Origin: a virus
Direction: 5' to 3' (one strand)
Virus record (IMG/VR): IMGVR_UViG_3300029374_000001
Coordinates: 96,001-160,000 of that record
DNA: 64,000 nucleotides
Shown: one piece after another, positions 20,487 to 34,998 of the stretch
Layout of the letters: each line of letters begins with the position of its first letter
Position numbering within the stretch: the first letter of the stretch is position 1
Position numbers and translations under genes: made by a program
Notes under the pieces: model-generated
Databases searched by the model: none
The model's input: only the letters and a program-made list of their open reading frames with translations
Told to the model about the DNA's origin: nothing

Positions 20487-20536
20487 TCAATAATACATCC
20501 TTTCTTGTAATAAATTTTCATGAATTACTCATTATT

Positions 20537-21826: not shown

Positions 21827-21898
21827 TGCCATTCTCCTTCCTGATACTTTCCGTATCATAGAAAATATATAGATTAATATTTACTTTCACTCATATAG

Positions 21899-21928
21899 TA
21901 TATAAGTTAAAATAAATTAGATTACAAA
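21899..21928 (-). promoter_or_regulatory. conserved phage promoter P1 (TTTGTAATCTAA extended -35, 17 bp, TATATA)
   Basis: The minus strand reads aaaTTTGTAATCTAAtttattttaactTATATA. It is one of four copies sharing an identical 12-13-nt upstream element. Confidence 0.6.
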
Positions 21929-22006
21929 TTTAGATTTCGTATAACTAGTTAGTAAGAAATCATGTAGTTTAGCTGCGAATGATTTCTTAGAGATATACTT
22001 ATCGTA

Positions 22007-22186
22007 CTATGATAAGAGTATATCTTGTGCTTTGACAAGATTACTTAACAAGGTAATCTTGAAAGCGAGAATACACTCGTGATTATCTGGCGTATCTTTA
22101 ATCAATTTTAGATTTTCTAAAGCATCTTTCAGATATCCAGAAAACCAAAGAGCATATTCTTTGGAATTAATGTCTTTAGTAATCAT
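22007..22186 (-). CDS. small hypothetical protein (59 aa)
   Basis: Not in the ORF track. ATG follows AAAGGAGAATACGT. It reads MITKDINSKEYALWFSGYLKDALENLKLIKDTPDNHECILAFKITLLSNLVKAQDILLS. It is preceded by a structured 5' UTR and promoter P2. Confidence 0.45.
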   Translation of the reverse strand: MITKDINSKEYALWFSGYLKDALENLKLIKDTPDNHECILAFKITLLSNLVKAQDILLS

Positions 22187-22300
22187 ACGTATTCTCCTTT
22201 CGAGGCTTATAAGATTACACAGCTATAAAATCTTATAAGTCATATATTTGATATGGGAGAGATAGCCGGTAACTATCTCTTCCCTCTATCAAATATATAA

Positions 22301-22330
22301 TATATGATTTAGAAAATCTTAGATTACAAA
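22301..22330 (-). promoter_or_regulatory. conserved phage promoter P2 (TTTTTTGTAATCTAAG, 17 bp, CATATA)
   Basis: The minus strand reads ttttTTGTAATCTAAgattttctaaatCATATA, about 110 nt upstream of the 22186 start. Confidence 0.55.
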
Positions 22331-22345
22331 AAACAAAAGTGTATT

Positions 22346-22369
22346 CCCATAGACCATATGGTCTATGGG
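22346..22369 (-). terminator. hairpin terminator (CCCATAGACCATATGGTCTATGGG)
   Basis: Perfect palindrome 17 nt after the stop of 22386..22907. Confidence 0.55.
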
Positions 22370-22385
22370 AATTATTTGTAAATTA

Positions 22386-22907
22386 TTATTTCAACCAGCT
22401 AGGAGCTGGAGCAAATACTTTAACACTTTCATATGCTTTCACATATGTTCTTCCGGAACTATAGATCTTAGTTCCATCTTTCTTTACTTCAACAACCTGT
22501 GGGAATGTTCTTTCTCCAGCAGGAATTTCTTTAAGAGCCACCGATACATTAGACTTTTCTCTTCCACCAAGAGGAAGTTTACGTCCTGTATGGATATAGG
22601 TATTAATAAATTCTTTGCTGAATTCGATCAAAGCTTCTGCTTCACTTTTTTTGAATTCATGTTCTCTCATTAAGCTCTGTGCTTCTGCCATTGGGATCTT
22701 TGCCGCCGAACTCATGACAGATGCACACATTTCTCTAATTTTAGTAGATGGGTTATATGTAGATTCTTTACCACTTACCCCATATAGGTCTACTTTGTAG
22801 GTTGTGTCATTCATCATTGCACGCATAACTCTAATTTCATCCTTATGAGATGTTGTGCAAGTTGTTCCTTTATTGATGATTTTTAACAACTCTGCTACTT
22901 TCTCCAT
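22386..22907 (-). CDS. hypothetical protein (173 aa)
   Basis: Strong SD (AGGAGG, 9 nt, ATG). Globular, with a basic C-terminus. I could not confidently recognise a family. Confidence 0.55.
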   Translation of the reverse strand: MEKVAELLKIINKGTTCTTSHKDEIRVMRAMMNDTTYKVDLYGVSGKESTYNPSTKIREMCASVMSSAAKIPMAEAQSLMREHEFKKSEAEALIEFSKEFINTYIHTGRKLPLGGREKSNVSVALKEIPAGERTFPQVVEVKKDGTKIYSSGRTYVKAYESVKVFAPAPSWLK

Positions 22908-22947
22908 TTATAAAATCCTCCTAACTTTATAAACACAAATCATAGAA

Positions 22948-23106
22948 TTATGATTTAGTTTTATCTAATTTAGTTTTTGCCATATCATCAACGATGGTAA
23001 TAGCATTCATTAGTTTTCTCTTTGTATGGATATATCTATATAGATAATCTTTTAATTCTTCTCTGGAGTATTTAGAAATTGTCTCTAAGAATTCTTCTTT
23101 TTTCAT
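22948..23106 (-). CDS. possible small protein (52 aa)
   Basis: ATG follows AGGTGATAACT. It reads MKKEEFLETISKYSREELKDYLYRYIHTKRKLMNAITIVDDMAKTKLDKTKS. Not in the ORF track. Confidence 0.35.
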   Translation of the reverse strand: MKKEEFLETISKYSREELKDYLYRYIHTKRKLMNAITIVDDMAKTKLDKTKS

Positions 23107-23242
23107 AGTTATCACCTATCCTATTACTATCTAAGTTCGTTGAGATATAACTTTTAAATTCTCAAAACGACAGCTTACAATGTAGTTATCGAACACTTAT
23201 ATAAATTTTCATATTATTTTCAAATGAAAGGATATGTGCTAT

Positions 23243-26200
23243 ATGGCAACATCTATTGAAAAACTTGTTCCTCTTCGTTTGATGAAGACCAAACTTAAAT
23301 ACCCTACAGATCTTAAAGATCGTTATAAGGGTAGTGTTGTCTTCTTACTGACAAAATCTATAGATGGTTCTATAGACTTCTTAAATACCAATCAGTTCTT
23401 AGTGAATAATAAAACATTCTTGTCTTATTATATAGAGAAAGACTATACGTTTTATTTAGAATCTGCCGAAGAACCAAGAGATCATATGGTTGATTCTGTA
23501 TTAGAATCCTCTATGGGAGAACTCAATACTCAATATAATAATATATATGTGAAATCTGATTCAGCTACCTCTTTCTATCCAGATGCAGCACAATTGATTG
23601 CTATGAATGAAGATTTCGGAATCAATCAAAATTATCCCAATATATTTAGACGATTCTTATATAACGAACGCATCAAAAATCAAAAAGAAGCTATGACTCT
23701 TTATAAGAAGATCAAAGCTTCTATTGATTGGATTAAGTATACATACATTAATCTTTCTATCTATAAAAGAAAGAACTTAATTGTCGATTGGTCATATTAT
23801 GCAAATCTGTTCTTTAAGAATAATGAATTATATATCAGAGATAAAGGAATTGATCTGTTACATCATATGATGACAAGATATCTGAATGATGCTAGATTAA
23901 CTAATGAAGGATATAGCAGAAAGACAGTTATTATTCCAGTCAACGAATGGTGCAATGGAATCGAAGATAAAGTATTATTTGACTTTACTAAAAATATCAA
24001 TCCATTCTCTATGATCTTCCGTTTAACCAAACAAAAGAAAATATTCCCAAATGAATGGGAAGGAATTGATTTTATCGTTTGCTCTAAGAATGCTTATTTC
24101 AAAATAGACTTAAATAATTTCAGCATCAAAGAACTGGTTAGGTTTGTATACTTAACCAAGAAGTTAATTGCTAATGAAATTGCCGATGCAGATACAACGG
24201 ATGATGAAGAAACCATTGTAACTTCCGGATTAACCCAGAATAAAGAATTGTCTGGTAAAGATACAGAATATGTAACAGTCAAAGTTTCTGATGATGAAAA
24301 GAAAGAAGAAATTGTTGACGTTGCTCCAGAGCATAAAGAACCTATCGTTAACCCTGATGAAGACTGGTTAAAATCTGTCGTTGCTGATTTAGATGAGAAT
24401 TCTAAAGATACAGTCAAGATCAATGAAGCTAGACAAAAACGTATGGAAGAATTAGACAAGACATACGATAATACAGAAATTCATGGTAAGAAAGTTAAAA
24501 CAATCTTAGAGAACTACTATACCAAAGACAGATCTTTGAAGTCCGAACCTATTCCGATTGACTCTATCAATGAAGAATGGAAAAATATATCTTCATTAAA
24601 CTTAGAGAAGTCATACGATATTGATGAAGATATTGTTGCTATTCTTAAATCATTCCGATATAAATCCAGACCATTATCTATTGTATCTATGAAGATGGAA
24701 GATACTTCGACCAATATGGACTATGTCAATACATTGACTGTAGTAATGGAAGATGCTTATGGAACCAGATCCACTATTAAATTGGATATTCCTAAGTTTA
24801 TCAATCATCGGTTTATGAAACTAAGAGGAAACTTAAAAACTATTGCTGGTCAGTTAATCTTAATGCCTATCATTAAAACAGATGAAGATACAGCACAGAT
24901 TGTTACCTCTTATCATAAGATCTTTATTTACAGAATCAATCCATCCAATGGTTCTAAATCAACCAAAGGGGTATCTAAGCTAACCAAAGCTCTAAGTAAA
25001 CTAAATACAATAACTTCTAAATTGGAAGTATTTGAAGGAGATAATAGTTTTATCTGTTCTAAATATGAATTGCCAATCGAATATAGAGATTTGGCTGGTT
25101 TGTATTCCAGAATCAATTTAGGAGATGGAAGTTATGTGACGTTTGATTATGATAAAGCATTACAGCTTCCTACTGATAATAAGTATGATCAAGCAAAGCA
25201 TATTATATTTGGCTTTGATAATAAAACTAAGAAAGCAGTATATGGAGATAAAGAAAGATTATCTTTTGATATTGGAAATTTCTTAGCTTCTAAAGATAAA
25301 GCTTTTGGCGATCTCTATGTAAGTACAGTACCGTCTAATAAACTTTCTTATTCTGAAGCATCTATTATGAATACGGATATTCCTGTAATTATTTTGATGG
25401 CTTTCAGTGAAGGTTTACAGAAAGCGATGGATAAATCTAAGATTAAATATCGCTTCTCTGAAAAGAGACCAAAAGCAACAGATACAGAATCTGTTATTCG
25501 TTTTTCTGATGGATACATCATATACAATGATGAACACCCAGAAGATTCTCTATTAATGACTGGATTGACTAAGTGTGATTTGAGTTCCTATTCTATTAAA
25601 GATATTAATAGCAAATCTATGTGGTTAGATATCTTGGATGACTTTGGCGGACGTATCAAAGCAGATGGTTTAGATAACTTCTATGATTGCGAATTTGACC
25701 CTATGTCTATTGATATCTGTAAGAGAAAGAAGATTCCCTATGATTATATAGAAGCTTTAGCCTATGCTAATAAACTCTTAGCTTCTACGGAATATAACAA
25801 GCATGCTGATATTTCTGGAAATAGAATTAGAACTAATGAAATCTTAGCAGGATACTTATATCAAGTATTGGCTAATGCCTATGGAGATTATGCCAGCAAG
25901 TCTAAGAGAGTGGGTAAAGGAGTTAAACTCTCTATTAAACAATCTGCGTTAATAGATGCTCTTATGAAAGATCCCGGATTCTCCGATTTATCTGTGTCTT
26001 CTCCTTTATTAGAAGCAGAAGCTGCTACATCTGCATCGTTTAAAGGATTGTCTGGTATGAATGCGGATAGAGCATATACCTTAGATAAACGAGTATATGA
26101 TGAATCTATGCTTGGTATTCTGGGAGCATCTACAGGGTTTGCAGGTAATGTTGGTATTACCAGACCAATGACTATCAATGCGTCTATTCAGAATAGCAGA

Positions 26201-27535
26201 GGATTAATGGATCCTAAAAGGCCAAAAGATCTGAATACATTAAATACGTTAACTATATATGAAGCATTGACTCCTTATGCTACTACCCATGATGATCCTA
26301 TTCGTACAGCTATGGGATTTGTTCAGACAGTTAAACACCAGATGAGAGTTAAATCTTCTTCTCCCAGTTTAATTACATATGGCATGGATGAAGCTCTTCC
26401 TTACTTTACAACCGATATATTCTCCCATAAATTCAAAGGAGTTAAAGGCAAAGTATTAGACGTCAATGATGAATTTATTATTTATGAAACTATTGATGAA
26501 GATGGAAATAAATCAAAAGAATTTGTTGATTTGTCCGATCATACAATGAAGAACTCAGATGGTGGTTTCTATGTCACAGTTAAATTAAAGCCACAGGTTA
26601 AGAAGGGTCAAACTCTAAAGAAGAATGATATCTTAGCCTATGACCCAACTTCATATTCTCCCACTGTAGCTTCTGATAAGAATTCTAAAAATATTGCTTA
26701 TAATGCTGGTACATTAGCAAAGATCGCTATTATGTGTACTGATGAAGCATATGAAGATTCTTCTATTATCAATACAAGATTAGTAGATGCATTAACTTCA
26801 TTCTATGTAGTAGAAAAATTGTGTTCTTTAGATGCACACTCTAATGTATTCTCTTTAGCAGAAATTGGTAAACCTATTCAAGAAGGATCTCCTTTAATTG
26901 TATTCCAGAATGCATTTGAAGAAGAAGATGCTAATAAACTTCTTAAGAATATCAATGATGAAGAATTAGATGCTATTACAGATTTTGGTCGTATTCAAGT
27001 TCATTCTAAATTAACTGGTATATTACAAGATATCAAGATTAGAAGAACATGTGAACTTTCCGATCTGTCTCCATCATTAAAGAAGATTGTTACTCAATAT
27101 GAAAACGGTATTAAAGCTAAAAAGAAAAAGCTCTTATCTGCTGGAGTAAATCCAATAGAAGTAGAATCTATGTTAGAATCTACAGAAAAGATGCTTCCTG
27201 AGGGTAAACTGAAAAACACACCAAATGGTGTTATGTTTGAATTCTATATCAAATGTAGAGATAAAATGGGTGTAGGAGATAAGTTAACCTATAATACAGC
27301 CATCAAAGGTGTTGTTAAGGATATTATACCAGATGGTAAAGATCCTTATACAGATTTCAGAAAGAATGAACCTATTGATGCTTTATTAACTTCTGCATCC
27401 GTTAATGCTCGTATGGTTCCCTCTGTTATGATCTCTGGGGCTTTGAATAAAGTCTTAATTGAATTATCTAGACAATGTAAAGAAAAGTTAGGTATTCAGT
27501 GGACTAACTTAGAAAACAAAAACAATTTAGATTAA
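23243..27535 (+). CDS. very large hypothetical protein (1430 aa), function unknown
   Basis: Long uninterrupted ORF. The ATG at 23243 is preferred because GAAAGGA lies 10 nt upstream. I found no Walker A, no polymerase A/B/C motifs and no RNAP DFDGD motif. It has an acidic stretch around residues 320-400. Confidence 0.6.
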   Translation: MATSIEKLVPLRLMKTKLKYPTDLKDRYKGSVVFLLTKSIDGSIDFLNTNQFLVNNKTFLSYYIEKDYTFYLESAEEPRDHMVDSVLESSMGELNTQYNNIYVKSDSATSFYPDAAQLIAMNEDFGINQNYPNIFRRFLYNERIKNQKEAMTLYKKIKASIDWIKYTYINLSIYKRKNLIVDWSYYANLFFKNNELYIRDKGIDLLHHMMTRYLNDARLTNEGYSRKTVIIPVNEWCNGIEDKVLFDFTKNINPFSMIFRLTKQKKIFPNEWEGIDFIVCSKNAYFKIDLNNFSIKELVRFVYLTKKLIANEIADADTTDDEETIVTSGLTQNKELSGKDTEYVTVKVSDDEKKEEIVDVAPEHKEPIVNPDEDWLKSVVADLDENSKDTVKINEARQKRMEELDKTYDNTEIHGKKVKTILENYYTKDRSLKSEPIPIDSINEEWKNISSLNLEKSYDIDEDIVAILKSFRYKSRPLSIVSMKMEDTSTNMDYVNTLTVVMEDAYGTRSTIKLDIPKFINHRFMKLRGNLKTIAGQLILMPIIKTDEDTAQIVTSYHKIFIYRINPSNGSKSTKGVSKLTKALSKLNTITSKLEVFEGDNSFICSKYELPIEYRDLAGLYSRINLGDGSYVTFDYDKALQLPTDNKYDQAKHIIFGFDNKTKKAVYGDKERLSFDIGNFLASKDKAFGDLYVSTVPSNKLSYSEASIMNTDIPVIILMAFSEGLQKAMDKSKIKYRFSEKRPKATDTESVIRFSDGYIIYNDEHPEDSLLMTGLTKCDLSSYSIKDINSKSMWLDILDDFGGRIKADGLDNFYDCEFDPMSIDICKRKKIPYDYIEALAYANKLLASTEYNKHADISGNRIRTNEILAGYLYQVLANAYGDYASKSKRVGKGVKLSIKQSALIDALMKDPGFSDLSVSSPLLEAEAATSASFKGLSGMNADRAYTLDKRVYDESMLGILGASTGFAGNVGITRPMTINASIQNSRGLMDPKRPKDLNTLNTLTIYEALTPYATTHDDPIRTAMGFVQTVKHQMRVKSSSPSLITYGMDEALPYFTTDIFSHKFKGVKGKVLDVNDEFIIYETIDEDGNKSKEFVDLSDHTMKNSDGGFYVTVKLKPQVKKGQTLKKNDILAYDPTSYSPTVASDKNSKNIAYNAGTLAKIAIMCTDEAYEDSSIINTRLVDALTSFYVVEKLCSLDAHSNVFSLAEIGKPIQEGSPLIVFQNAFEEEDANKLLKNINDEELDAITDFGRIQVHSKLTGILQDIKIRRTCELSDLSPSLKKIVTQYENGIKAKKKKLLSAGVNPIEVESMLESTEKMLPEGKLKNTPNGVMFEFYIKCRDKMGVGDKLTYNTAIKGVVKDIIPDGKDPYTDFRKNEPIDALLTSASVNARMVPSVMISGALNKVLIELSRQCKEKLGIQWTNLENKNNLD

Positions 27536-27573
27536 TACATTCTAATAACCAACTGAAGATAGCGAGTTTCTTA

Positions 27574-27599
27574 GGGTATACGGAATATTCCGTATACCC
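27574..27599 (+). terminator. hairpin after the 1430-aa gene
   Basis: Perfect palindrome GGGTATACGGAATATTCCGTATACCC 39 nt after the stop codon. Confidence 0.5.
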
Positions 27600-27802
27600 A
27601 TTCGCTCGTCAAAAGGCCGCATTTCATTTCTAACATATTAGTAAAGGCTTTTGTATCTCTGATCATACCCGTCCATATATGATTATATACAATTGTCTAA
27701 AATTTCATAAATTTCCTCTTCTTGAAAATTTGTTTTCTCCTTATAATTCACTGTACTTTCTCCGGTACAGTGAATTATACCGCCAATATTACAATAAAAG
27801 AT

Positions 27803-27825
27803 CCCATAGCTCCTATGAGCTATGG
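27803..27825 (-). terminator. hairpin terminator of the small-membrane-protein cluster (CCCATAGCTC-CTAT-GAGCTATGG)
   Basis: A 9-bp stem with a 4-nt loop, directly downstream of the 27833 stop on the minus strand. Confidence 0.5.
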
Positions 27826-27832
27826 AACTTAT

Positions 27833-27991
27833 CTATTTAACAAGTACGATAATTGCTCCTACAATAAATACAGAGCATATTAATCCTGCCATATATTCTG
27901 GCATAACAACACCTAAGATTACATTCATAAATATAGATACCAGAATAACCACTACACATAGTAATATCTTTATGATATTTCCTATTCCCAT
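27833..27991 (-). CDS. small hydrophobic membrane protein (52 aa)
   Basis: It reads MGIGNIIKILLCVVVILVSIFMNVILGVVMPEYMAGLICSVFIVGAIIVLVK. It continues a series of minus-strand small genes. I prefer it over the plus-strand track ORF 27822..28013. Confidence 0.4.
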   Translation of the reverse strand: MGIGNIIKILLCVVVILVSIFMNVILGVVMPEYMAGLICSVFIVGAIIVLVK

Positions 27992-28167
27992 AATTTACCA
28001 CCACACTTCATGATATCATAAAATGCATACAATGAGCTAACTAAGTAAACGACAAATAAACATCCTGCAATTCCATATCTGTCATACGTTAAGCAATATG
28101 CAGAACAACTTCCGCATATGATGGACAATAGAATGCAAAGTATGCTAACCAATATTCTACAATGCAT
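27982..28167 (-). CDS. small Cys-rich membrane protein (61 aa)
   Basis: AGGAGG SD about 9 nt upstream. Hydrophobic core ILVSILCILLSIICGSCSAYCL. Confidence 0.5.
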   Translation of the reverse strand: MHCRILVSILCILLSIICGSCSAYCLTYDRYGIAGCLFVVYLVSSLYAFYDIMKCGGKLWE

Positions 28168-28180
28168 AATTTATAACCTC

Positions 28181-28267
28181 CTAACCTATCCAGTTATAAA
28201 GTATATATAACAATAATCCGAAGATCATACAAGCACAGTATTCATTCGTATATTTATTATTCATCAT
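28181..28267 (-). CDS. possible micro-protein (28 aa, hydrophobic)
   Basis: ATGATG about 9 nt after AAGGAG. It reads MMNNKYTNEYCACMIFGLLLYILYNWIG. Confidence 0.3.
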   Translation of the reverse strand: MMNNKYTNEYCACMIFGLLLYILYNWIG

Positions 28268-28375
28268 AATAAAAATCTCCTTATGATTACATAGAAATAT
28301 TCAGAGCAATATAGTGTTCGGATATTGTCTACAAGAAAATGGACGGGCTATAAGGGTTATAAAAAATAAAAAAAT

Positions 28376-28406
28376 AAAGAGCTTTTAAAAGCTCTTTATT
28401 TTTTTA
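28376..28406. terminator. bidirectional rho-independent terminator
   Basis: AAAGAGCTTTTAAAAGCTCTTT flanked by A-runs upstream and a T-run downstream. Confidence 0.6.
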
Positions 28407-28601
28407 TTAGCGAAACAGATCAATTACAACAAATAGAGATATAATTGCTGCTTTCAAACCAAGAACAATACATGCTGCCCAATCGCCAAGTTTACATAAA
28501 ACATTAATACCCTGTTTATGAGCTTGATCATAGAAATGAACACACCAATCCAGATCAATCAATACGATTGCAATTAATACAAAATACTGCCACCATTTCA
28601 T
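28407..28601 (-). CDS. small two-helix membrane protein, holin-like (64 aa from the refined start)
   Basis: The ORF track gives a start at 28631 with no SD. The ATG at 28601 (MKWWQYFVLIAIVLIDLDW...) lies 7 nt after AAAAGGAGGA. It has two hydrophobic segments and is downstream of promoter P3. Confidence 0.5.
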   Translation of the reverse strand: MKWWQYFVLIAIVLIDLDWCVHFYDQAHKQGINVLCKLGDWAACIVLGLKAAIISLFVVIDLFR

Positions 28602-28670
28602 TTTTAAGTCCTCCTTTTGACTTGTTACCATTAGATGATATGATTTATCATTTCTTATTCATCTCTATAA

Positions 28671-28700
28671 TATATAATTTATCAAAAGTTAGATTACAAA
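28671..28700 (-). promoter_or_regulatory. conserved phage promoter P3 (TTTTGTAATCTAAC, 17 bp, TATATA)
   Basis: The minus strand reads catTTTGTAATCTAActtttgataaatTATATAttatagagatgaa. It is near-identical over about 45 nt to P4. Confidence 0.6.
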
Positions 28701-28724
28701 ATGTCTATAATACCCACCTTTATA

Positions 28725-28835
28725 TTATTTAAAGAGCATATCTTCTAATAAAACACCATTGATAATATCATATGCCATAATAGCCCACATAATAGCTAAG
28801 ATGGCTACAAAGATATAACTCATCTTCTTTTTCAT
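28725..28835 (-). CDS. possible small membrane protein (36 aa)
   Basis: ATG 8 nt after AAGGAG. It reads MKKKMSYIFVAILAIMWAIMAYDIINGVLLEDMLFK. Confidence 0.35.
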   Translation of the reverse strand: MKKKMSYIFVAILAIMWAIMAYDIINGVLLEDMLFK

Positions 28836-28864
28836 TGTATGTACTCCTTTTATGAAATTCTATG

Positions 28865-29734
28865 TTAAAAAGTATTTGTTTCTGTCATGATATTTTCTAT
28901 ATGAATCTTTAGACTATTTGTCGATTCATCATAGGTAAAATAAAATAGATATCCATTTCTGGTAAAGAATTTAAAATTTTCTATATGCGCATGAGCGATA
29001 TGAACGTCATTAAAATCCTTCACATCAGATTCTCTTAATTTAAAATGAGAAAAAAGCTCTCTAATTCTTTCGAAATCTTCCTTAGTTGTAAATCTTTCGA
29101 TAATATGCATCCCAAACCCCTTATATCCAATAGGTTTGAACACCCCATCATCGTCAAATTCGATTCTATACACTTCTCCCGTGTACTTATACGTGGGCAG
29201 CACAGATTTCTCTATTAAATCGTAAAAATGGTGAATTTCGGAATGATCATTACTATGAAGAAGTTCATCTAAAAGATCGGACGTTAATATATCATATGAG
29301 TTTATCACAACTTCATTCATGATATTTTCCAATAAATCGTCAGACTTTACGAAATGAAAATCTTCATCAAAGTTTCCATTTTCTATATTTCTTTCTTTTT
29401 CTATATAAGGCGGAATGGTGTAAAACTCCATTTCATTTTCGGAATCATATAAAATATCCCAAGTTCTATTACTATAAATGGCCGTTATGACTATACTAAA
29501 CTCTTCTTTATATTTCTCATATCCATTCATTAATGTAAAAAAGTCCGGAATGCTATAAGAAAAAAGTACAATATGATCTTCTTTATGATTTTCGGAACGA
29601 AAGATATCTTCTAATTTATTCATAAGATCAAAATATGTAACGCATATATCATATACTTTTCCAAGTCTATTAAGAACTAACTTATTATTTTCAAAAAATT
29701 TCGGTAATACAAAAAGCTCAATCTTAGTCATCAT
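28865..29734 (-). CDS. hypothetical protein (289 aa)
   Basis: ORF with SD AAAGGAGAACTATG. It is the first gene transcribed leftward from the divergent non-coding region. Confidence 0.55.
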   Translation of the reverse strand: MMTKIELFVLPKFFENNKLVLNRLGKVYDICVTYFDLMNKLEDIFRSENHKEDHIVLFSYSIPDFFTLMNGYEKYKEEFSIVITAIYSNRTWDILYDSENEMEFYTIPPYIEKERNIENGNFDEDFHFVKSDDLLENIMNEVVINSYDILTSDLLDELLHSNDHSEIHHFYDLIEKSVLPTYKYTGEVYRIEFDDDGVFKPIGYKGFGMHIIERFTTKEDFERIRELFSHFKLRESDVKDFNDVHIAHAHIENFKFFTRNGYLFYFTYDESTNSLKIHIENIMTETNTF

Positions 29735-29883
29735 AGTTCTCCTTTTATAAAAAACGCAAGATAATCATTCTAAAAAACTTAGAATGATTATTCAAGTGTC
29801 ATCATATCTTCCAAGATTAAAAAAACGCCATATGATTTCTCCATAAATTATAAAGGAGTTTTATATATTTATCATTCGCAATA

Positions 29884-29968
29884 TTCAAAAATTTTCAAAA
29901 AATTCGGAAAGGCGATAATCTTCCTATAATTTTTCGGAACATTTTAAACTTTCAAAAACTTCGAATAC
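29884..29968. repeat. iteron-like direct repeats TTC(A/G)(A/G)AA(A)
   Basis: TTCAAAAA occurs three times, TTCGGAA(A/C) twice and TTCGAATA once, within 85 nt of non-coding DNA. Confidence 0.5.
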
Positions 29969-29985
29969 CTAGCTAACGCCTTTAC

Positions 29986-30016
29986 GAAGTATATGGGGCT
30001 ATCGCCCATATACTTC
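29986..30016. repeat. palindrome GAAGTATATGGG-gctatcg-CCCATATACTTC
   Basis: A 12-bp perfect inverted repeat with a 7-nt spacer in the non-coding region. Confidence 0.6.
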
Positions 30017-30388
30017 TAAAACATATCTCTTATATCTTTTAATTTTATTCTTTATTACAGCGCTCCGCTCCCTCTTCGTAGTTGGATAGCGGAACGCTTA
30101 TATTAAATGGAACTCTATATGCTTTCTTTATAATTTTTATAATAATTTTAAAATTCCAAGTAATTCTTTTAAAACTTGGAATAATTACTACTTCTATTTA
30201 TCTTGGAAAATATATACTAACTTCGTTATTTCTGTTGGAATAAGAATACATTCCTGATTTTTAAATAATTTCTTCAGTTTTTCTTTTTTTTTTAATTTAT
30301 TGGTAAATTTTAAACTATCATTTTAATTTTAAAATTGATACAACATATTTGTAATTTTGAAAATTTTGCTAAAGACTATAATGGCCAT

Positions 30389-30606
30389 AAGACCTCTATA
30401 GGCTCAACGGAATACCACGTACATTAAATACCGAATCACTCGCCTACGGCTAATCACAGATAAAGCTCAGCATCGCGCAATCCGCTTCCCTGCTCCTTGT
30501 CGCTCTGCCATATGGTTTCGTTCCGGACTTCCCCTGAAACATATCCTCGCTGCCTCGCTCGGATACCCGTCCTACACTCAACTACCCTCCGGGGGAGGGG
30601 GTTTTT
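30389..30606 (+). ncRNA. candidate small non-coding RNA spanning the GC-rich, pyrimidine-skewed island
   Basis: A perfect TATAAT lies at 30377..30382. About 215 nt downstream is the hairpin CCCTCC-GGG-GGAGGG followed by TTTTT (30585..30606). The interval is about 52% GC in a roughly 30% GC genome, is strongly C/T-rich on the plus strand, and has no credible ORF or SD. Confidence 0.25.
30585..30606 (+). terminator. GC-rich hairpin plus T5, an intrinsic terminator
   Basis: CCCTCCGGGGGAGGG with a 6-bp G/C stem, followed by GGTTTTT. Confidence 0.55.
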
Positions 30607-30694
30607 AGGGGGAGGGGGGAAATTTTTTAAAATTAAAATATAACTAAACATATTTTAAGTCGATTTTTGATAATTTTTGAAAAATATACGCAAA

Positions 30695-30724
30695 TTGACA
30701 TCTGAGTATAGACTCAGATGTGAT
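30695..30724 (+). promoter_or_regulatory. promoter (TTGACA, 18 bp, TGTGAT) with an overlapping operator-like palindrome
   Basis: Consensus TTGACA at 30695..30700. The palindrome CATCTGAGT-ATAG-ACTCAGATG at 30699..30720 occupies the spacer. It lies 30 nt upstream of the AAAAGGAGG SD of the kinase-like gene. Confidence 0.45.
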
Positions 30725-30755
30725 TTCTATTGTTAAAAGGAGGAATTGATAGTAT

Positions 30756-31526
30756 ATGAAAAGCTTGTTGATAGGATTTGAGGGATTAGATGCCAGCTAT
30801 AAACATACTAATGCGGAAGCATTGTATGATCATTTAACAGATGTATATGATAAAGCCATTCGAGCAGATCATTTAAAAATAGAATTGGTTTCTTTTCCAA
30901 GATATAAACATGCCTCCTCTTGGTTTGTCAGAGAATATTTAAATGGTCATTACAATCGTTTTATGATGGATTATGATCAGGTTATATTTCCCAGGCAGTC
31001 TAAGTTGAAACAAGTATCTATGTTTTTCTTGGCAGATATGATTGACTGGTATAGTGATGCATTAAGACGAGGGTTATTTATTAAGAATCATATTATTATC
31101 TTTGATCGCTATATATATTCTATGATGTATTACTTAATTCCAGAGATCTATGCTAAGAAAGAACATCATTATCAAAACTACTTCGAACGATACTTACATA
31201 CCATCAGAGAGAATCCAATGTATGAAGTATTGCCTAAGGTAGATATCTTACTAAAGATGATTACTTCTCCTGATGCTATAGAAAAAGGAATTAATAAAAG
31301 AGGAAGAACCAAAGATAGATATGAAAAGAACCTACAGTATCTGAAAGACGTCAATACATTCTTCAATGGATTAGATTTAAAAGAAGATCTGAATAATACC
31401 AACTATAAAGGATTGAAACACCAATTCGAAATCGATACGGTAGATAAAGATCCAGAAACTATATTTAACGATATATTAAAGAAGATCAATCCAATAGTCA
31501 ATCGATTTGATAAACGAAAGTGGTGA
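30756..31526 (+). CDS. thymidylate/dNMP kinase-like protein with a non-canonical P-loop
   Basis: 256-aa ORF. It carries TMK-family landmarks: LIGFEGLDASYKHT at the P-loop position, but reading GxxxSYKH instead of GxxGxGK[ST]. It also has FFLADM (a LFxADR-like motif with R changed to M), a retained DRY motif (IIIFDRYIYSMMYY) and a C-terminal lid region. The SD is strong. Confidence 0.6.
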   Translation: MKSLLIGFEGLDASYKHTNAEALYDHLTDVYDKAIRADHLKIELVSFPRYKHASSWFVREYLNGHYNRFMMDYDQVIFPRQSKLKQVSMFFLADMIDWYSDALRRGLFIKNHIIIFDRYIYSMMYYLIPEIYAKKEHHYQNYFERYLHTIRENPMYEVLPKVDILLKMITSPDAIEKGINKRGRTKDRYEKNLQYLKDVNTFFNGLDLKEDLNNTNYKGLKHQFEIDTVDKDPETIFNDILKKINPIVNRFDKRKW

Positions 31527-31532
31527 TAAAAT

Positions 31533-32021
31533 ATGGAAGAACAAGATAGACCTTGTATAGGATTAATATTTGATGCAAGTTTTTTAATATGGGATGTATT
31601 AATTCCTATGGGAATTATTTATACGATATTAAACAGAAATCGGAATGCTAAGTTTGTATATGGTGGATTACCAAGACTCTGTATGCATGTAGAAGATTAT
31701 GCACAAAGTTTAAATATTCCAAAAGATCGATTGATTAAATTAGAGATGGATACATGTGTTAAGAGACATCTGCTTACTCAAACAAAAGAAGCAGAATGGT
31801 TTTCCCAATTATTGGCTTATCATCCTGGAAGAATATATTGCTTTAGAGATAATACACATTCTAATGCAACAGGTGTAATGGTTATGCATGCTGTACGTCA
31901 GAATATTCCTGTTATAGAGATAGACAATCATGGTAATAAGAGACAAATAACTAAAAATGCTCCCAGCGATCTTAATATTATTTATGCTCGTAAAGCAGGA
32001 AGGATTCCATACGATGTTTAA
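31533..32021 (+). CDS. hypothetical Rossmann-like protein (possible SLOG/DprA-like or nucleoside deoxyribosyltransferase-like fold)
   Basis: 162-aa ORF between the kinase-like and ThyX genes. The C-terminal segment NATGVMVMHAVRQNIPVIEID resembles the terminal strand-helix-strand of DprA/LOG-type Rossmann domains. I consider this assignment weak. Confidence 0.45.
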   Translation: MEEQDRPCIGLIFDASFLIWDVLIPMGIIYTILNRNRNAKFVYGGLPRLCMHVEDYAQSLNIPKDRLIKLEMDTCVKRHLLTQTKEAEWFSQLLAYHPGRIYCFRDNTHSNATGVMVMHAVRQNIPVIEIDNHGNKRQITKNAPSDLNIIYARKAGRIPYDV

Positions 32022-33321
32022 TCCAATGAAATTAAAAGAAGTTTTTCATAAGAAACCATCTGATCAAGATATAATCAATGCTGTTCATGCTGATGAATCA
32101 AATATGTTCTTTGAAGTATTGAGTATTTCTGATTCTGCTTACTTATGCTCTACTGGAGCTAAGACGTGTTATAATTTAGAGACAGCTAAAGAATATACAA
32201 AGAACTTAGAACATATTGCCAGAATTATGGGATATGGTCATGACTCTATATCTGCTCATTCCAATATGATCATTAAATTGAATATAGAAGCAGATGATAG
32301 AGAGCATATGAATTTGTTACCCATTTTATTTGCATTACCAGCTATGAAGTATATGAATATTGCTATTCTTCCATATAAGGAAGATTTACCAGGAACTAGA
32401 CACAGTATTCAATTATTGATTTCTGGATCTGTTAGAGCATTCAGATACTTCATACAAAAATTCAATGACACCTATATAGAAAATAATGGGTATAATACCG
32501 ATCTCTATGAGGTCATGAAGCAATGTATTTATCAGTCTTTTGAAAAAGAATTCTTTGTTGATTTCATTAAGGCTGGACTATTAGATGAGAAGCAGTTTGT
32601 TTATAAAGCACAAATGAAATTGATTGTGTCTGAAGATGAACATGGAGATGAAGTGGCCGATGTAGGAACAGAAGCAGTTCATCAACCTGTATTGTCTACG
32701 AATATGGTAGATATATTGTATAGAGATAATATCTATGATCTATATTCTCATCTTTTATCTAATGGAGCAGATCCAGATAGATTATTAGACTGCTTATTAG
32801 AAACTTGTATCGTTACTTTAAGACTAAAGAATTATTCTAGAGCTATATCTCAGCAGATTAATAGACATCAGTCTGGTATATCTCAAGAATCTCAGAGATA
32901 TGTAAACTATAGTGAATCTCAGTTTATTGATCCTTTGCATTTTCATGATAATATAGAAGATCAGAATAAAGAATATTCTATCGATTTTATGGGGTCTACA
33001 TTTAAAGGAACCATGAAAGAATTGGGACAATCTTTGATTGCTATTTATCCACAGTTGAAAGAACAGGGATTACAGAATCAGGATGCTCGTGCTATTCTGC
33101 CTATGAATTCTGAGACTAAAACAATCCATACATTTACCTATAAGAATTTACTCCATTTTATTAAGTTAAGAGACTCTCAATTTGCTCAGCAAGAAGTTAG
33201 ACAAATAGCTAGAGATATAAAGTTACTCTTATTTAGTAAGGATGAATATCTTTCTATGGAATCTACAGAAGTTAGAGACTTCTTAAATTCTAAGATGTTA
33301 GAGTTGACTAATCATAAATAA
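32014..33321 (+). CDS. thyX: flavin-dependent thymidylate synthase ThyX family protein, 435 aa with a roughly 170-aa insertion
   Basis: Start at 32014 (AGGAAGGATTCCATACG-ATG), overlapping the upstream stop. N-terminal GAKTCY...IMGYGHDSISAHS matches the ThyX start (R.CY...HGHESVLEH). The hallmark motif SRAISQQINRHQSGISQESQRYVNYS matches SRAxxHELVRHRIASYSQESQRY. C-terminal ARAILPMNSETKTIHTFTYKNLLHFIKLRDSQFAQQEVRQIA matches the ThyX C-terminus (LP...T...N.R.L.HF..LR....AQWEIR). Confidence 0.75.
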   Translation: MFNPMKLKEVFHKKPSDQDIINAVHADESNMFFEVLSISDSAYLCSTGAKTCYNLETAKEYTKNLEHIARIMGYGHDSISAHSNMIIKLNIEADDREHMNLLPILFALPAMKYMNIAILPYKEDLPGTRHSIQLLISGSVRAFRYFIQKFNDTYIENNGYNTDLYEVMKQCIYQSFEKEFFVDFIKAGLLDEKQFVYKAQMKLIVSEDEHGDEVADVGTEAVHQPVLSTNMVDILYRDNIYDLYSHLLSNGADPDRLLDCLLETCIVTLRLKNYSRAISQQINRHQSGISQESQRYVNYSESQFIDPLHFHDNIEDQNKEYSIDFMGSTFKGTMKELGQSLIAIYPQLKEQGLQNQDARAILPMNSETKTIHTFTYKNLLHFIKLRDSQFAQQEVRQIARDIKLLLFSKDEYLSMESTEVRDFLNSKMLELTNHK

Positions 33322-33406
33322 TCAAAGTCTATATATCTCTACACATAGTAGTAATGAAATTTACAAGATGCTTTAAACTATTTTTTAAACTATAAGGAGA
33401 ACTAGT

Positions 33407-33889
33407 ATGCACAATATCAAAAGATTTGCCGATTTTTCTAAAGCTGTTGAAGAAATTATGAGTATTGTACCCGGTCTGACTTTCTTTTTTACACACACAG
33501 ATGAAGATGGCCGGCAGTCTGATTTATGTAAAGAACCAGATCAGGTTGTTCGAAACATATTTAACGATTTGATGAATGATTATCCATCCATACAGGATTT
33601 AGAATATCCAAGAACAGTAGCCTTCTCTATCTCTGCAGATGAAGTAGGTTATAAAACAAGAGGTCCGATAGCATTTGGATGGAGAAATATCATTTCTGAT
33701 CATAATACGTTGGAATATAGTTTTCGAATCAGTATATTCAGCAATAGCTTGGGAGCTAAACATTTAGAAGCAGAACTGAATAAGTTAGGATGGGTCCAGA
33801 AACCATATACTCACTTAGCACATGCTTCCAAATCCTATAGCGAAAAGAAAAGCAAATCTCAGATTCATGCAGAAAAGTCTGCTCAATAG
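33407..33889 (+). CDS. hypothetical protein (160 aa)
   Basis: ORF with SD TAAGGAGAACTAGT-ATG. Confidence 0.5.
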   Translation: MHNIKRFADFSKAVEEIMSIVPGLTFFFTHTDEDGRQSDLCKEPDQVVRNIFNDLMNDYPSIQDLEYPRTVAFSISADEVGYKTRGPIAFGWRNIISDHNTLEYSFRISIFSNSLGAKHLEAELNKLGWVQKPYTHLAHASKSYSEKKSKSQIHAEKSAQ

Positions 33890-34044
33890 TTATTCATATT
33901 TCCAACTATAAATACACCATATTTTAAGCATCTTGTAATTCATCGCATAATAAAGTCTTGATATATGAGTGACCGAATGATTTCATTGGCATTAACGCAT
34001 TAAGAATCCTATATTTCAGGATTTTATTATGGAGGAATAGAATT

Positions 34045-34070
34045 CAGACTGTAGCATATGCTACAGTCTG
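34045..34070 (+). terminator. hairpin (CAGACTGTAGCATATGCTACAGTCTG)
   Basis: Perfect palindrome. A second, smaller hairpin AATCCTATATTTCAGGATT lies about 20 nt upstream, at about 34003..34025. Confidence 0.45.
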
Positions 34071-34103
34071 CTATTTCATCGAAACATCATATTACAAAGG
34101 AAG

Positions 34104-34832
34104 GTGAATAGTATGGCTCAAAACCCAGATTATAACAAGCCTACAAATAATCCTAAAGTAGAAGAGATAGATATTACATCTATTCCTGAATTTGATATAA
34201 AAGATTGGGATTTAGATAATCCCAAAGCTTATTTGCGCTTTATTACAAGAATTGAACGTATTTGTAGAAATTCGTTTGAATACAAGCAGTTCATTAATTT
34301 CTTAAGAGATAATGCTGGATTCAATAAATGCAGTATTATGGAAAATGTATCAAATGAAGAAAATAGAGCAATCAAAATTCATGTTCATCATTATCCGCTA
34401 ACATTATATGATATTGTATGGACTATTGCAAATAAACATAAGATGAATCACGAATCTATGGATGAAGATATGATTGCTAAAGAAGTCATGTATAATCATT
34501 ATACTCTTCATGTGGGGTTGATTCCATTATCTGAATCTGTTCATGAGATGAATCATAATAGCAGAATCTTTATTCCTACATGGGCTGTTTTAGGAAAATG
34601 GAGAACATTTGTAGAAGAATATAAACAATATATGTCATCCGATACTCTATCTAACTTAGAGAAGTTAGATGAGCTGAGCCAAAAATATAATCATGCAGAC
34701 AATACCGAGATACTGGATTCTGGATATGTTCGTCTCAAGATTGACGATCCAGATTATCAAGCAACTACAAAAGAACTTTATGATCATATTAACAAAACTT
34801 TAGATGAAATTAAATCTAAACAAAAACAATGA
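34104..34832 (+). CDS. paralog of the 9019..9750 HNH-like protein, with the Cys ligands lost
   Basis: 242-aa ORF. It aligns along its length with the 9019 product (FITRIERICRNSF / AITRVRTSNF; IKIHVHHYPLTLYDIVWTI / IELHHHVLTIFDIALVI; VLGKWRTFVEEYKQY / GFGKWWELLQKYKYG). The HH dyad is retained, but LCKTCHQLYH is replaced by LSESVHEMNH. Confidence 0.5.
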   Translation: MNSMAQNPDYNKPTNNPKVEEIDITSIPEFDIKDWDLDNPKAYLRFITRIERICRNSFEYKQFINFLRDNAGFNKCSIMENVSNEENRAIKIHVHHYPLTLYDIVWTIANKHKMNHESMDEDMIAKEVMYNHYTLHVGLIPLSESVHEMNHNSRIFIPTWAVLGKWRTFVEEYKQYMSSDTLSNLEKLDELSQKYNHADNTEILDSGYVRLKIDDPDYQATTKELYDHINKTLDEIKSKQKQ

Positions 34833-34837
34833 TAAAT

Positions 34838-34861
34838 CTGAGACTACTTGCGTAGTCTCAG
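34838..34861 (+). terminator. hairpin terminator (CTGAGACTAC-TTGC-GTAGTCTCAG)
   Basis: A 10-bp stem 6 nt after the stop codon, followed by AAATTTATGTTCT. Confidence 0.55.
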
Positions 34862-34967
34862 AAATTTATGTTCTAAACTAACATGTTTAGATGTGTTTGG
34901 GATATGTAAAAATGAGTATTAGACGTTTATACACTATCTCTCGTATAGATATATATAGAAAATATCC

Positions 34968-34998
34968 TTTTGTAATCTAATATTTTTGAAATTATATA
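34968..34998 (+). promoter_or_regulatory. conserved phage promoter P4 (TTTTGTAATCTAAT, 17 bp, TATATA)
   Basis: ccTTTTGTAATCTAAtatttttgaaatTATATAttatagagatgaaataag, upstream of the small membrane ORF and the tape-measure-like gene. Confidence 0.6.

What the first reader, a model, noticed from the sequence alone, without database searches (positions are those of the whole stretch)
21899..34998. Family of near-identical extended promoters: TTTTGTAATCTAA, 17 bp, TATATA
Four intergenic sites (21899..21928 -, 22301..22330 -, 28671..28700 -, 34968..34998 +) share an identical 12-13-nt element, (T)TTTGTAATCTAA. Its TTGTAA core sits exactly 17 bp upstream of TATATA or CATATA, and each site is oriented toward a downstream gene. 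Two copies (P3, P4) are near-identical over about 45 nt, including the sequence after the -10 (ATTATAGAGATGAA). Two others (P1, P3) sit the same about 66-70 nt upstream of their start codons. A degenerate fifth copy (TTTGTAATATAG..TATAAT, 9787..9817) precedes the 9837 gene, and GTAATCT cores recur in the 51.2 kb repeat cluster. Conservation this far beyond a generic -35 hexamer points to recognition by a dedicated factor (a phage sigma or activator) that defines a temporal class. The genes served are small proteins, a holin-like protein and the tape-measure gene.
Basis: seen in the sequence. Interest (0 to 1): 0.6.

Follow-up and report, generated by a model that had tools for sequence, protein, structure and literature searches.

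The report
Jumbo-phage early promoters with upstream box
The four repeated sites are most likely early promoters read by a giant phage's own injected RNA polymerase, and they carry an extra upstream 12-base box that, in the related model phage AR9, marks the genes switched on first.

Summary
TTTGTAATCTAA occurs four times (0.04 expected), always intergenic and always pointing at a small gene.

The window is a distant AR9-like jumbo phage. It has a fused vRNAP beta gene, AR9 synteny and AR9-type late motifs (AACA-N6-TA) in front of structural genes.

The core also occurs without the box at five or six further credible sites in the window. The box is therefore a discrete upstream element at -40..-29, always 12 nt from the core. 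It was found in 35 loci of one uncultivated phage lineage.

AR9 has an equivalent box, ACCGTATTAAAA, at the same position in 9 of about 39 early promoters. In published RNA-seq these are the "pre-early" genes (5/20-min ratio 1.18 against 0.21, p=3e-5).

It is not a sigma-70-type -35/-10 promoter, it does not serve the tape-measure gene, and the fifth copy and the 51.2 kb "cores" are not members.

Verdict: a new variant of a known promoter kind.

The parts
21917..21928 (-). P1 upstream box TTTGTAATCTAA (-40..-29)
   Evidence: Exact match. It lies 12 nt upstream of the core.
21888..21904 (-). P1 core TATATACTAT (21904-21895), then 6 nt, then predicted start G at 21888. It serves a 61-aa ORF at 21826-21641.
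22319..22330 (-). P2 upstream box. It is preceded by a bidirectional terminator hairpin at 22343-22372.
22290..22306 (-). P2 core CATATATTAT (22306-22297) and predicted start G at 22290. A 5'-terminal hairpin spans 22290-22250. It serves a 59-aa ORF at 22186-22007.
   Evidence: The fold has z=-4.5 and pairs from +1. The hairpin shows compensatory changes across paralogues.
28689..28700 (-). P3 upstream box
28660..28676 (-). P3 core TATATATTAT and predicted start G at 28660. It serves a 64-aa two-helix membrane protein at 28601-28407, followed by a terminator at 28408-28365.
   Evidence: The terminator fold has z=-7.1.
34969..34980 (+). P4 upstream box
34993..35009 (+). P4 core TATATATTAT and predicted start G at 35009. 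A 222-nt leader follows, then a 38-aa membrane peptide at 35231-35346.
35342..35378 (+). Terminator-like hairpin plus U-run. It separates the P4 cassette from the giant tape-measure-like gene.
   Evidence: Sequence. Fold is -8.3 kcal/mol, z=-3.4.
62572..62588 (-). Core-only early promoter (no box) upstream of the 356-aa gene
61404..61420 (-). Core-only early promoter upstream of the 247-aa gene
51636..51652 (-). Core-only early promoter upstream of the 96-aa gene. The arrangement parallels the AR9 early promoter before gp213.
14781..14797 (-). Core-only early promoter
9806..9822 (-). Core-only site with the same 17-mer as P3/P4. It is conserved in four relatives.
20530..20546 (-). Probable core-only early promoter with a one-mismatch core, TAGATATTAT-N6-G
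23234..27535 (+). Virion RNA polymerase beta-like subunit (1433 aa). It is the presumed reader of these promoters and is itself preceded by a late-type motif at 23192-23203.
   Evidence: phrog_3148 at 1e-128. About 30% identity to AR9/PBS1, Staphylococcus and Listeria jumbo phages. It matches AR9 gp188 and, via PBS1 genes 78/80, gp077, both annotated as virion RNAP subunits.
35403..35414 (+). AR9-type late promoter motif AACATACCATTA, 30 nt before the giant virion gene. Similar motifs lie at 44337-44348, 46532-46543, 51682-51693 and 2152-2163(-).

Best explanation
The four sites are early promoters of an AR9-like jumbo phage. They are read by the multisubunit RNA polymerase that the phage carries in its virion and injects with its DNA.

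Anatomy: a 12-nt upstream box TTTGTAATCTAA at -40..-29, a T-rich 12-nt spacer, the 10-nt core TATATATTAT at -16..-7, six bases, then the initiating G.

The core plus G is the general early promoter of this phage. It also occurs without the box, usually with just AAA at -31..-29.

The box is a discrete add-on, present or absent, that defines a subclass. Each box promoter heads a compact cassette: often a terminator, then the promoter, a 5'-terminal RNA hairpin, a strong ribosome-binding site and a small, often membrane, protein gene.

I infer by analogy that the box gives a second contact for the injected polymerase or a factor travelling with it, so that these cassettes fire first ('pre-early'). 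The analogy is AR9's equally placed box ACCGTATTAAAA, whose promoters are the ones that peak 5 min after infection.

What is shown and what is inferred:
- Shown here: the sequence anatomy, the statistics, conservation across the lineage, identity of the core to mapped AR9 promoters, and the AR9 box-kinetics association.
- Inferred: that the virion polymerase uses these sites in this phage, that the G is +1, and that the box acts by recruitment.
For: Counts in the window:
- Box: 4 copies against 0.04 expected.
- Core+G: 8 exact copies against 0.42 expected. Seven of the eight are intergenic and five lie 28-222 nt upstream of a same-strand gene.

Match to AR9:
- AR9 early promoters are AAATATATATTAT-N6-G, with the G mapped as TSS by dRNA-seq and primer extension. 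They are active without protein synthesis and are attributed to vRNAP (PMC5312081).
- The window encodes a vRNAP beta homologue and shares AR9 synteny: tape measure, virion protein, RusA, and the gp212-214 block.
- The AR9 late motif AACA-N6-TA is depleted overall in the window (29 against 63±8.6). Yet 9 of 29 copies lie within 5-120 nt upstream of gene starts (p=2e-6). Five of these genes have AR9 orthologues, and all five are late in AR9.

Box behaviour in the lineage:
- 35 loci of one uncultivated jumbo-phage lineage carry box-N12-core, 9 and 7 copies on the two largest contigs.
- The Hamming distance of -40..-29 to the box is bimodal: 0-2, or 4 and above.
- Observed variants change only positions 1, 2 and 12 of the box.
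- The 9-mer TGTAATCTA lies exactly 12 nt from a core in 48 of 48 distinct promoter contexts. It is never free-standing in intergenic DNA.
- Spacers and downstream genes differ widely between copies.

AR9 parallel:
- Nine early promoters carry ACCGTATTAAAA (0-2 mismatches) at the same -40..-29 position, with the same 12-nt gap.
- The 5/20-min FPKM ratio of their first genes has median 1.18, against 0.21 for 28 box-less promoters (Mann-Whitney p=3.4e-5).
- All five first genes that peak at 5 min are box-positive (Fisher p=2.5e-4).
- The difference holds against box-less promoters with no late boost (p=6e-4).
- All eight genes the authors called 'pre-early' lie in box-positive operons.

Support for G as +1: the P2 and P4 transcripts fold from +1, and the 5' hairpin keeps pairing through compensatory changes in 5 of 10 pairs.
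Against: - No transcript data exist for this phage. The TSS, the timing and the polymerase used are all inferred.
- The lineage loci were retrieved with an exact box, so box invariance there is partly by construction. The window itself and the flanks of those loci are the unbiased sample.
- Sequence similarity between the two boxes is weak: 6 of 12 letters (nnnGTAnTnnAA), not significant in AT-rich DNA. The parallel rests on position and spacing.
- The AR9 association comes from one RNA-seq experiment with three time points. It could reflect mRNA stability or shut-off rather than recruitment.
- The AR9 chloramphenicol test used only box-less promoters (P087, P104).
- A ThyX-like gene suggests this phage may not have uracil DNA as AR9 does, so its transcription biology may differ.
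- 100 kb of Listeria phage LPJP1 has the core but no clear discrete box.
Confidence: 0.6

Rival explanations
1. The core is a virion-polymerase early promoter, but the box is an operator for a separate phage-encoded DNA-binding regulator rather than a polymerase contact. The regulator could be an early repressor that shuts these cassettes off after the first minutes, or a co-injected activator.
For: In AR9, box-positive transcripts fall between 5 and 20 min while other early transcripts rise about five-fold. Active shut-off would produce this. The box is present or absent as a unit and is lineage-specific, as expected for a co-evolving protein-site pair.
Against: The box is asymmetric, with no dyad. 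It lies at an absolutely fixed 12-nt distance from the core in 48 of 48 contexts and never occurs alone in intergenic DNA. This looks more like a composite promoter read as one unit. Box-less promoters keep AAA at the place where the box ends, which suggests a graded polymerase contact.
Confidence: 0.22
2. These are host sigma-A/sigma-70-type promoters (-35 TTGTAA, 17 bp, -10 TATATA) used by host polymerase at the start of infection.
For: The TTGTAA-17-TATATA geometry is present at all four sites. TATTAT at -12..-7 relative to the G also resembles a -10 hexamer (read from the sequence).
Against: - TATATA lacks the invariant final T, and TTGTAA is 21 nt from TATTAT.
- Conservation covers 12+10 nt plus the +1 G, far beyond the hexamers.
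- The same core without any -35-like sequence recurs at five or six further credible sites.
- The AR9 equivalent box ACCGTATTAAAA has no -35 likeness.
- The generic sigma-70 scan did not list these four sites among its 60 strongest matches (16 weaker not shown) and found fewer matches than shuffles overall.
- Transcription in jumbo phages that encode their own RNA polymerases was shown (in phiKZ and relatives) to be rifampicin-insensitive.
Confidence: 0.05
3. The box has no function of its own. It is carried along because whole promoter cassettes were recently duplicated or shuffled by recombination, like the promoter/stem-loop cassettes of T4-type phages.
For: P3 and P4 are about 85% identical over about 47 nt. 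Many box promoters sit next to terminator hairpins and small variable ORFs, and some head a 57-60-aa paralogue family.
Against: - Spacers, leaders and downstream genes have diverged widely while the central 9 nt of the box never vary.
- Spacing is invariant.
- An equally placed but different box exists in AR9 and tracks expression kinetics.
Confidence: 0.08

Closest known systems
Early (virion RNA polymerase) promoters of Bacillus phage AR9/PBS1: AAATATATATTAT-N6-G(+1) (Lavysh et al. 2017, PMC5312081)
   Same: - Identical 10-nt core TATATATTAT, the same 6-nt gap and the same initiating G.
- The phage encodes homologous vRNAP subunits and shows gene synteny with AR9.
- Late genes carry AACA-N6-TA.
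- A subset of about 9 promoters per genome has a 12-nt box at -40..-29, exactly 12 nt upstream of the core.
   Different: - The box sequence differs: TTTGTAATCTAA against ACCGTATTAAAA.
- AAA at -19..-17 is weaker here (AAT/AAAT).
- Proteins are only about 20-35% identical.
- vRNAP beta is a single 1433-aa protein here but is split in AR9.
- The published AR9 consensus does not include the upstream box. The AR9 paper's text does not mention it and no phage paper in the held library carries either box sequence. The 2016 AR9 genome paper could not be read.
phiKZ / 201phi2-1 early promoters (Chimalliviridae vRNAP)
   Same: AT-rich conserved promoters for an injected multisubunit polymerase. Conservation is reported at -10, -20 and -30 (PMC11512511), so upstream contacts are not unprecedented.
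   Different: In those phages the extended conservation is described for the early class as a whole. Here the upstream box is an optional, discrete module that splits the early class. The sequences are unrelated.
T4 middle promoters with a MotA box (recalled from general knowledge, not tested)
   Same: A phage-specific box about 12 bp upstream of the -10-like element takes the place of a -35 element and defines a temporal class.
   Different: T4 uses host polymerase with sigma-70, AsiA and MotA. Here the polymerase is phage-encoded, and no MotA or AsiA homologue was sought or seen.
Promoter-early stem-loop (PeSL) cassettes of T4-type phages (recalled from general knowledge)
   Same: Repeated early promoter plus hairpin units that flank small variable ORFs.
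   Different: A different polymerase and a different motif. A recombination role was not tested here.

Membership tests
AR9-type jumbo-phage vRNAP early promoter | Conserved AT-rich element (A)AATATATATTAT centred near -10 | tested here: met
   TATATATTAT is exact in P3 and P4 and has one mismatch in P1 and P2. It is compared with the AR9 Table S2 sequences.
AR9-type jumbo-phage vRNAP early promoter | Conserved G (the TSS) 6 nt downstream of the element | tested here: met
   G is present at that position in 4 of 4 box sites and at all 8 exact-core sites. That it is the real 5' end cannot be tested here.
AR9-type jumbo-phage vRNAP early promoter | Phage encodes a virion multisubunit RNA polymerase | tested here: met
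   The 1433-aa beta-like protein matches AR9 gp188 and, via PBS1 genes 78/80, gp077, both annotated as virion RNAP subunits. Packaging into virions was not testable.
AR9-type jumbo-phage vRNAP early promoter | Motif over-represented, intergenic and co-oriented with downstream non-structural genes | tested here: met
   Exceptions are the antisense or in-gene sites at 9822 and 23547.
AR9-type jumbo-phage vRNAP early promoter | Early transcription that is independent of host polymerase and of new protein synthesis | not testable with these tools
   Requires infection experiments.
Sigma-70/sigma-A -35/-10 promoter | -10 hexamer with invariant A at position 2 and T at position 6, placed 17±1 bp from a TTGACA-like -35 | tested here: not met
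   TATATA and CATATA lack the final T. The better hexamer TATTAT is 21 bp from TTGTAA. None of the four sites appears among the 60 matches listed by the generic scan.
Sigma-70/sigma-A -35/-10 promoter | Conservation confined to the two hexamers | tested here: not met
   12+10 nt plus the +1 G are conserved.
'Pre-early' box subclass of AR9 early promoters (defined here from AR9 data) | Discrete 12-nt box at -40..-29 with a fixed 12-nt gap to the core | tested here: met
   Window and lineage. AR9.
'Pre-early' box subclass of AR9 early promoters (defined here from AR9 data) | Transcripts peak at the earliest time point | not testable with these tools
   Shown only for AR9, by re-analysis of Tables S2 and S4.
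'Pre-early' box subclass of AR9 early promoters (defined here from AR9 data) | Box sequence homologous to ACCGTATTAAAA | tested here: inconclusive
   6 of 12 identical (G-37, T-36, A-35, T-33, A-30, A-29). This is not significant in AT-rich DNA.

The most novel reading that the evidence does not exclude
Virion RNA polymerases of AR9-like jumbo phages recognise bipartite promoters. The core at -16..-7 is read together with an upstream module ending at -29: a minimal AAA in ordinary early promoters and a full 12-nt lineage-specific box in a conserved immediate-early regulon of about nine cassettes per genome. This would imply a sigma-like two-point recognition device, either a polymerase domain or a co-injected specificity protein, in an enzyme for which no promoter-specificity subunit is known. 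It would also explain the 'pre-early' class that was left unexplained in AR9.
Probability: 0.35. Interest if true: 0.65.

Novelty: new variant of a known kind. Interest (0 to 1): 0.5.

Why it matters
How the injected multisubunit polymerases of jumbo phages find their promoters is still open. They have no sigma homologue, and no specificity subunit has been identified for the virion enzyme (reviews read).

A discrete, rigidly spaced upstream box that splits the early class offers a concrete, mutable handle on that question. It reappears, with a different sequence but at the same position, in the culturable model phage AR9, where it tracks the unexplained 'pre-early' kinetics.

It also flags the first-expressed genes in an uncultivated phage lineage recovered partly from Human Microbiome Project assemblies. 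These are small membrane and other small proteins, plausibly host-takeover or anti-defence functions.

Tried and rejected
- No megablast match of the region in the phage collection.
- No tRNAs and no Rfam families.
- The generic sigma-70 scan gave fewer hits than shuffles and did not list the four sites among its 60 strongest matches.
- PHROGs and Pfam gave nothing for the small ORFs served by the box promoters.
- Third-lineage tests. Fusobacterium phage JD-Fnp7 (whole genome) and Staphylococcus phage S6 (first 50 kb) show no TATATATTAT-N6-G family. Listeria phage LPJP1 (100 kb) has the core, and about half the sites have TTAAA(C) ending at -29, but there is no clear discrete box.
- A literature string search for either box found only unrelated primer matches. 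The 2016 AR9 genome paper was not available.
- The idea that TTTTG of the box is merely the U-tract of an upstream terminator was rejected. P1, P3, P4 and the AR9 boxes have no hairpin upstream.
- The idea that the 51.2 kb GTAATCT repeats are extra boxes was rejected. They are stem arms with no core.
Full report
**1. Observation**

TTTGTAATCTAA occurs exactly four times in the window: 21917-21928(-), 22319-22330(-), 28689-28700(-) and 34969-34980(+). Shuffles give 0.04 expected. With two mismatches allowed the count is no more than chance (27 against 24), so the family is the exact form.

All four copies lie in the 9.6% of the window that is intergenic (p=8.6e-5). Each faces a downstream small ORF.

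**2. What the '-10' really is**

Aligning the sites shows that conservation continues past TATATA. Each site has a 10-nt core (TATATATTAT twice, CATATATTAT, TATATACTAT) followed after six bases by G.

The exact pattern TATATATTAT-N6-G occurs 8 times in the window against 0.42 expected. Seven of these are intergenic, and five lie 28-222 nt upstream of a same-strand gene. Six of the eight have no TTTGTAATCTAA; four of those six head a nearby same-strand gene, one (9822) sits in an intergenic gap facing an opposite-strand gene, and one (23547) is antisense inside a gene and may be chance. A further one-mismatch site lies at 20546.

So there are two tiers: a general core, and a core preceded by the box. 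The box lies exactly 12 nt upstream of the core, at -40..-29 if the G is +1.

**3. Identity of the genome**

The 1433-aa ORF at 23234-27535 is a phage multisubunit RNA polymerase beta subunit (phrog_3148, 1e-128). Its closest relatives, at about 30% identity, are in AR9/PBS1, the Staphylococcus S6-like jumbo phages, Listeria LPJP1 and Yersinia phiR1-37.

Against AR9, tblastn matches its N-terminal and middle part to gp188; its C-terminal part matches PBS1 genes 78/80, the counterpart of AR9 gp077. Both are annotated as virion RNAP subunits.

Gene order matches AR9 in two blocks:
- tape-measure-like giant protein, virion protein, RusA;
- the gp212-gp214 block.

The window is therefore a distant, uncultivated member of the AR9-like jumbo phages, which carry a virion RNAP (vRNAP) for early genes and a non-virion RNAP for late genes.

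**4. Match to mapped AR9 promoters**

Lavysh et al. 2017 (PMC5312081) mapped 41 AR9 early promoters by dRNA-seq and primer extension. The consensus is AAATATATATTAT-(6N)-G(+1). These promoters are active without protein synthesis and are attributed to vRNAP. The window's core, gap and G are the same.

The AR9 late consensus AACA-(6N)-TA/G also behaves as a functional signal in the window:
- It is depleted overall (29 against 63±8.6).
- Nine of the 29 copies lie within 5-120 nt upstream of same-strand starts (p=2e-6).
- The genes they precede include vRNAP beta (23234), the giant virion protein (35444), 44381, RusA (46591) and 51716.
- The AR9 orthologues of these five genes are all late.

The two-promoter logic of AR9 is thus conserved. 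The four sites belong to the early class.

**5. The box is a discrete promoter module**

A scan of IMG/VR for box-N12-core found 35 loci. All but one (L024, which lacks the +1 G) belong to one phage lineage, with 9 copies on a 260-kb contig, 7 on a 216-kb contig, and others on HMP-derived contigs.

The box promoters head many unrelated genes:
- membrane peptides of 31-64 aa;
- a 57-60-aa paralogue family;
- proteins of 61, 117, 125, 161, 210 and 291 aa.

Their spacers differ widely.

Among non-redundant core-bearing sites, the Hamming distance of -40..-29 to the box is bimodal: 0-2, or 4 and above. Variants change only positions 1, 2 and 12 of the box. The exact-box class is inflated, because the loci were retrieved with the box. 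The window itself and the flanks of those loci are unbiased, and they show the same present-or-absent pattern.

The invariant 9-mer TGTAATCTA lies exactly 12 nt (measured from the end of the 12-nt box) from a core in 48 of 48 distinct contexts. The few other intergenic copies have degenerate cores at the same spacing, and the only free-standing copies are in coding DNA.

Box-less promoters frequently carry AAA at -31..-29, where the box ends in TAA. This holds here, in other uncultivated jumbo lineages that share the same 17-mer core, in AR9 and in Listeria LPJP1. The box looks like an elaborated version of a general upstream contact point.

**6. The AR9 parallel**

I extracted the annotated early promoters of AR9 (NC_031039). 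Nine carry ACCGTATTAAAA (0-2 mismatches) at exactly -40..-29, again 12 nt from the core. Distances are again bimodal, with none at 3.

The paper's main text does not mention this box. A string search of the held literature found no phage paper containing it. The 2016 genome paper could not be read.

The authors noted, without explanation, a 'pre-early' group peaking at 5 min: g048, g109, g111, g120, g169, g235, g289 and g292. All eight lie in operons headed by box-positive promoters.

I compared the first gene after each promoter, using their Tables S2 and S4:

| Measure | Box-positive | Box-less | Test |
|---|---|---|---|
| Median 5/20-min FPKM ratio | 1.18 (n=9) | 0.21 (n=28) | Mann-Whitney p=3.4e-5 |
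| First genes peaking at 5 min | 5 of 9 | 0 of 29 | Fisher p=2.5e-4 |
| Ratio against box-less genes with no late boost | as above | n=7 | p=6e-4 |

Several AR9 box-positive genes encode small membrane proteins, as do P3 and P4 here.

The two boxes share only nnnGTAnTnnAA (6 of 12), which is not significant on its own. The parallel rests on position, spacing, copy number per genome, and present-or-absent behaviour.

**7. Cassette anatomy**

- P2, and most box promoters in relatives, directly follow a GC-rich terminator hairpin.
- The predicted transcripts start with a 5'-terminal hairpin. P2 and P4 pair from +1. Across paralogues, 5 of 10 stem pairs show compensatory changes.
- A strong AAAGGAGG ribosome-binding site and a small ORF follow.
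- The P3 gene ends at a strong terminator (28408-28365, z=-7.1).
- P4 serves a 38-aa membrane peptide (35231-35346). A terminator-like hairpin follows (35342-35378, z=-3.4). The giant gene then starts at 35444 behind its own late motif.

**8. Items in the finding that fail**

- The 'fifth copy' (9787-9817, +) is the reverse-strand flank of a minus-strand core, TATATATTATAGAGATG at 9822-9806. That core is conserved in four relatives and has no box.
- The 'GTAATCT cores' near 51.2 kb are arms of a strongly conserved, stably folding intergenic structure.

**9. Mechanism and rivals**

Best explanation: these are vRNAP early promoters, and the box is a second, rigidly spaced recognition module that marks a pre-early subclass.

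Rivals:
- The box could be an operator for a separate regulator. The AR9 decline after 5 min fits this. The fixed spacing, the asymmetry of the box and the absence of free-standing copies count against it.
- A host sigma-A promoter is unlikely. TATATA lacks the invariant T, conservation far exceeds the hexamers, the core works without any -35-like sequence, the AR9 box has no -35 likeness, and transcription in related RNAP-encoding jumbo phages such as phiKZ is rifampicin-insensitive.
- Pure hitch-hiking with duplicated cassettes does not explain an invariant box within diverged spacers and different genes.

**10. Novelty and verdict**

The promoter kind is known. The vRNAP early promoters of phiKZ-like phages are even reported as conserved at -10, -20 and -30.

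The new points are:
- a discrete, optional box at -40..-29 that splits the early class;
- its occurrence in a previously undescribed lineage;
- its link, by re-analysis, to the pre-early kinetics of AR9.

I rate it a new variant of a known kind, of moderate interest. All functional statements for this phage remain inferences from sequence and from AR9 data.

Noticed in passing
window, whole; examples 23192-23203, 35403-35414, 44337-44348, 51682-51693 (+), 2152-2163 (-): The AR9 late-promoter consensus AACA-N6-TA is strongly depleted in the window (29 against 63±8.6 expected). Yet 9 of the 29 copies lie within 5-120 nt upstream of same-strand start codons (p=2e-6), mostly of structural genes whose AR9 orthologues are late. 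This looks like selection against spurious late promoters.
   Followed up: yes
L097-L102 (Bacillus phage AR9, NC_031039), e.g. record 39456, 39708, 56759, 85574, 94727(-), 139406, 201697, 213850, 251030(-): Nine AR9 early promoters carry ACCGTATTAAAA at -40..-29. They head all eight genes that the AR9 authors called 'pre-early'. The 5/20-min FPKM ratio is 1.18 against 0.21 for box-less promoters (p=3e-5). The box is not mentioned in the paper's text.
   Followed up: yes
window 51119-51318 (minus strand): The 200-nt intergenic stretch between the 96-aa gene and the 451-aa virion-protein gene is almost invariant in five relatives, while the adjacent coding sequence diverges. It folds into a hairpin plus a Y-shaped element closed by a perfect 13-bp stem (-42.5 kcal/mol, z=-4.6), followed by a U-run. 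There is no Rfam match. AR9 has an early promoter with a 340-nt leader at the orthologous place. This may be a conserved attenuator or small RNA.
   Followed up: partly
window 22250-22290 (-), 35009-35082 (+); alignment A1 of relatives: Predicted early transcripts begin with a 5'-terminal stem-loop. Its loop is hypervariable, and its stem is kept through compensatory changes in 5 of 10 pairs.
   Followed up: partly
window 9806-9822 (-) and 9019-9750 (+): An exact-core early promoter on the minus strand is separated from the 2226-aa virion-protein gene (start 8903) by an oppositely oriented HNH-like gene (phrog_12252). This gene is a paralogue of 34104-34832 and matches AR9 gp241. It may be a mobile endonuclease gene inserted between a promoter and its gene.
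   Followed up: partly
window 23234-27535 (+): The virion RNAP beta subunit is one 1433-aa polypeptide here. In AR9 it is split into gp188 (N-terminal part) and gp077 (C-terminal part, fused to an HD domain and interrupted by introns).
   Followed up: partly
window 31957-33321 (+) and 30756-31526 (+): There is a ThyX-type thymidylate-synthase domain (Pfam Thy1, 4e-30) and a weak deoxynucleoside-kinase-like protein. This suggests thymine or a modified base rather than the uracil DNA of AR9/PBS1.
   Followed up: no
L048, L056, L081, L085, L091; L038, L066, L094, L095; L055; L114-L115 (Listeria phage LPJP1): The same TATATATTAT-N6-G core occurs in other uncultivated jumbo-phage lineages (contigs of 180-340 kb) and in LPJP1. 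It often has (T/C)AAA ending at -29 and a 5' hairpin, but no TTTGTAATCTAA box.
   Followed up: partly
L003, L008, L013, L016, L017, L018, L022, L032 and window 22007-22186: A family of 56-60-aa proteins ending ...L(L/S)NLVK(A/T/I)QD.IL.. sits behind box promoters in several copies per genome. No database family was found.
   Followed up: no
window 23531-23547 (-): An exact core+G lies antisense inside the 5' part of the vRNAP beta gene, 416 nt upstream of the next minus-strand ORF. It could be chance (0.4 expected per window) or an antisense or long-leader promoter.
   Followed up: no
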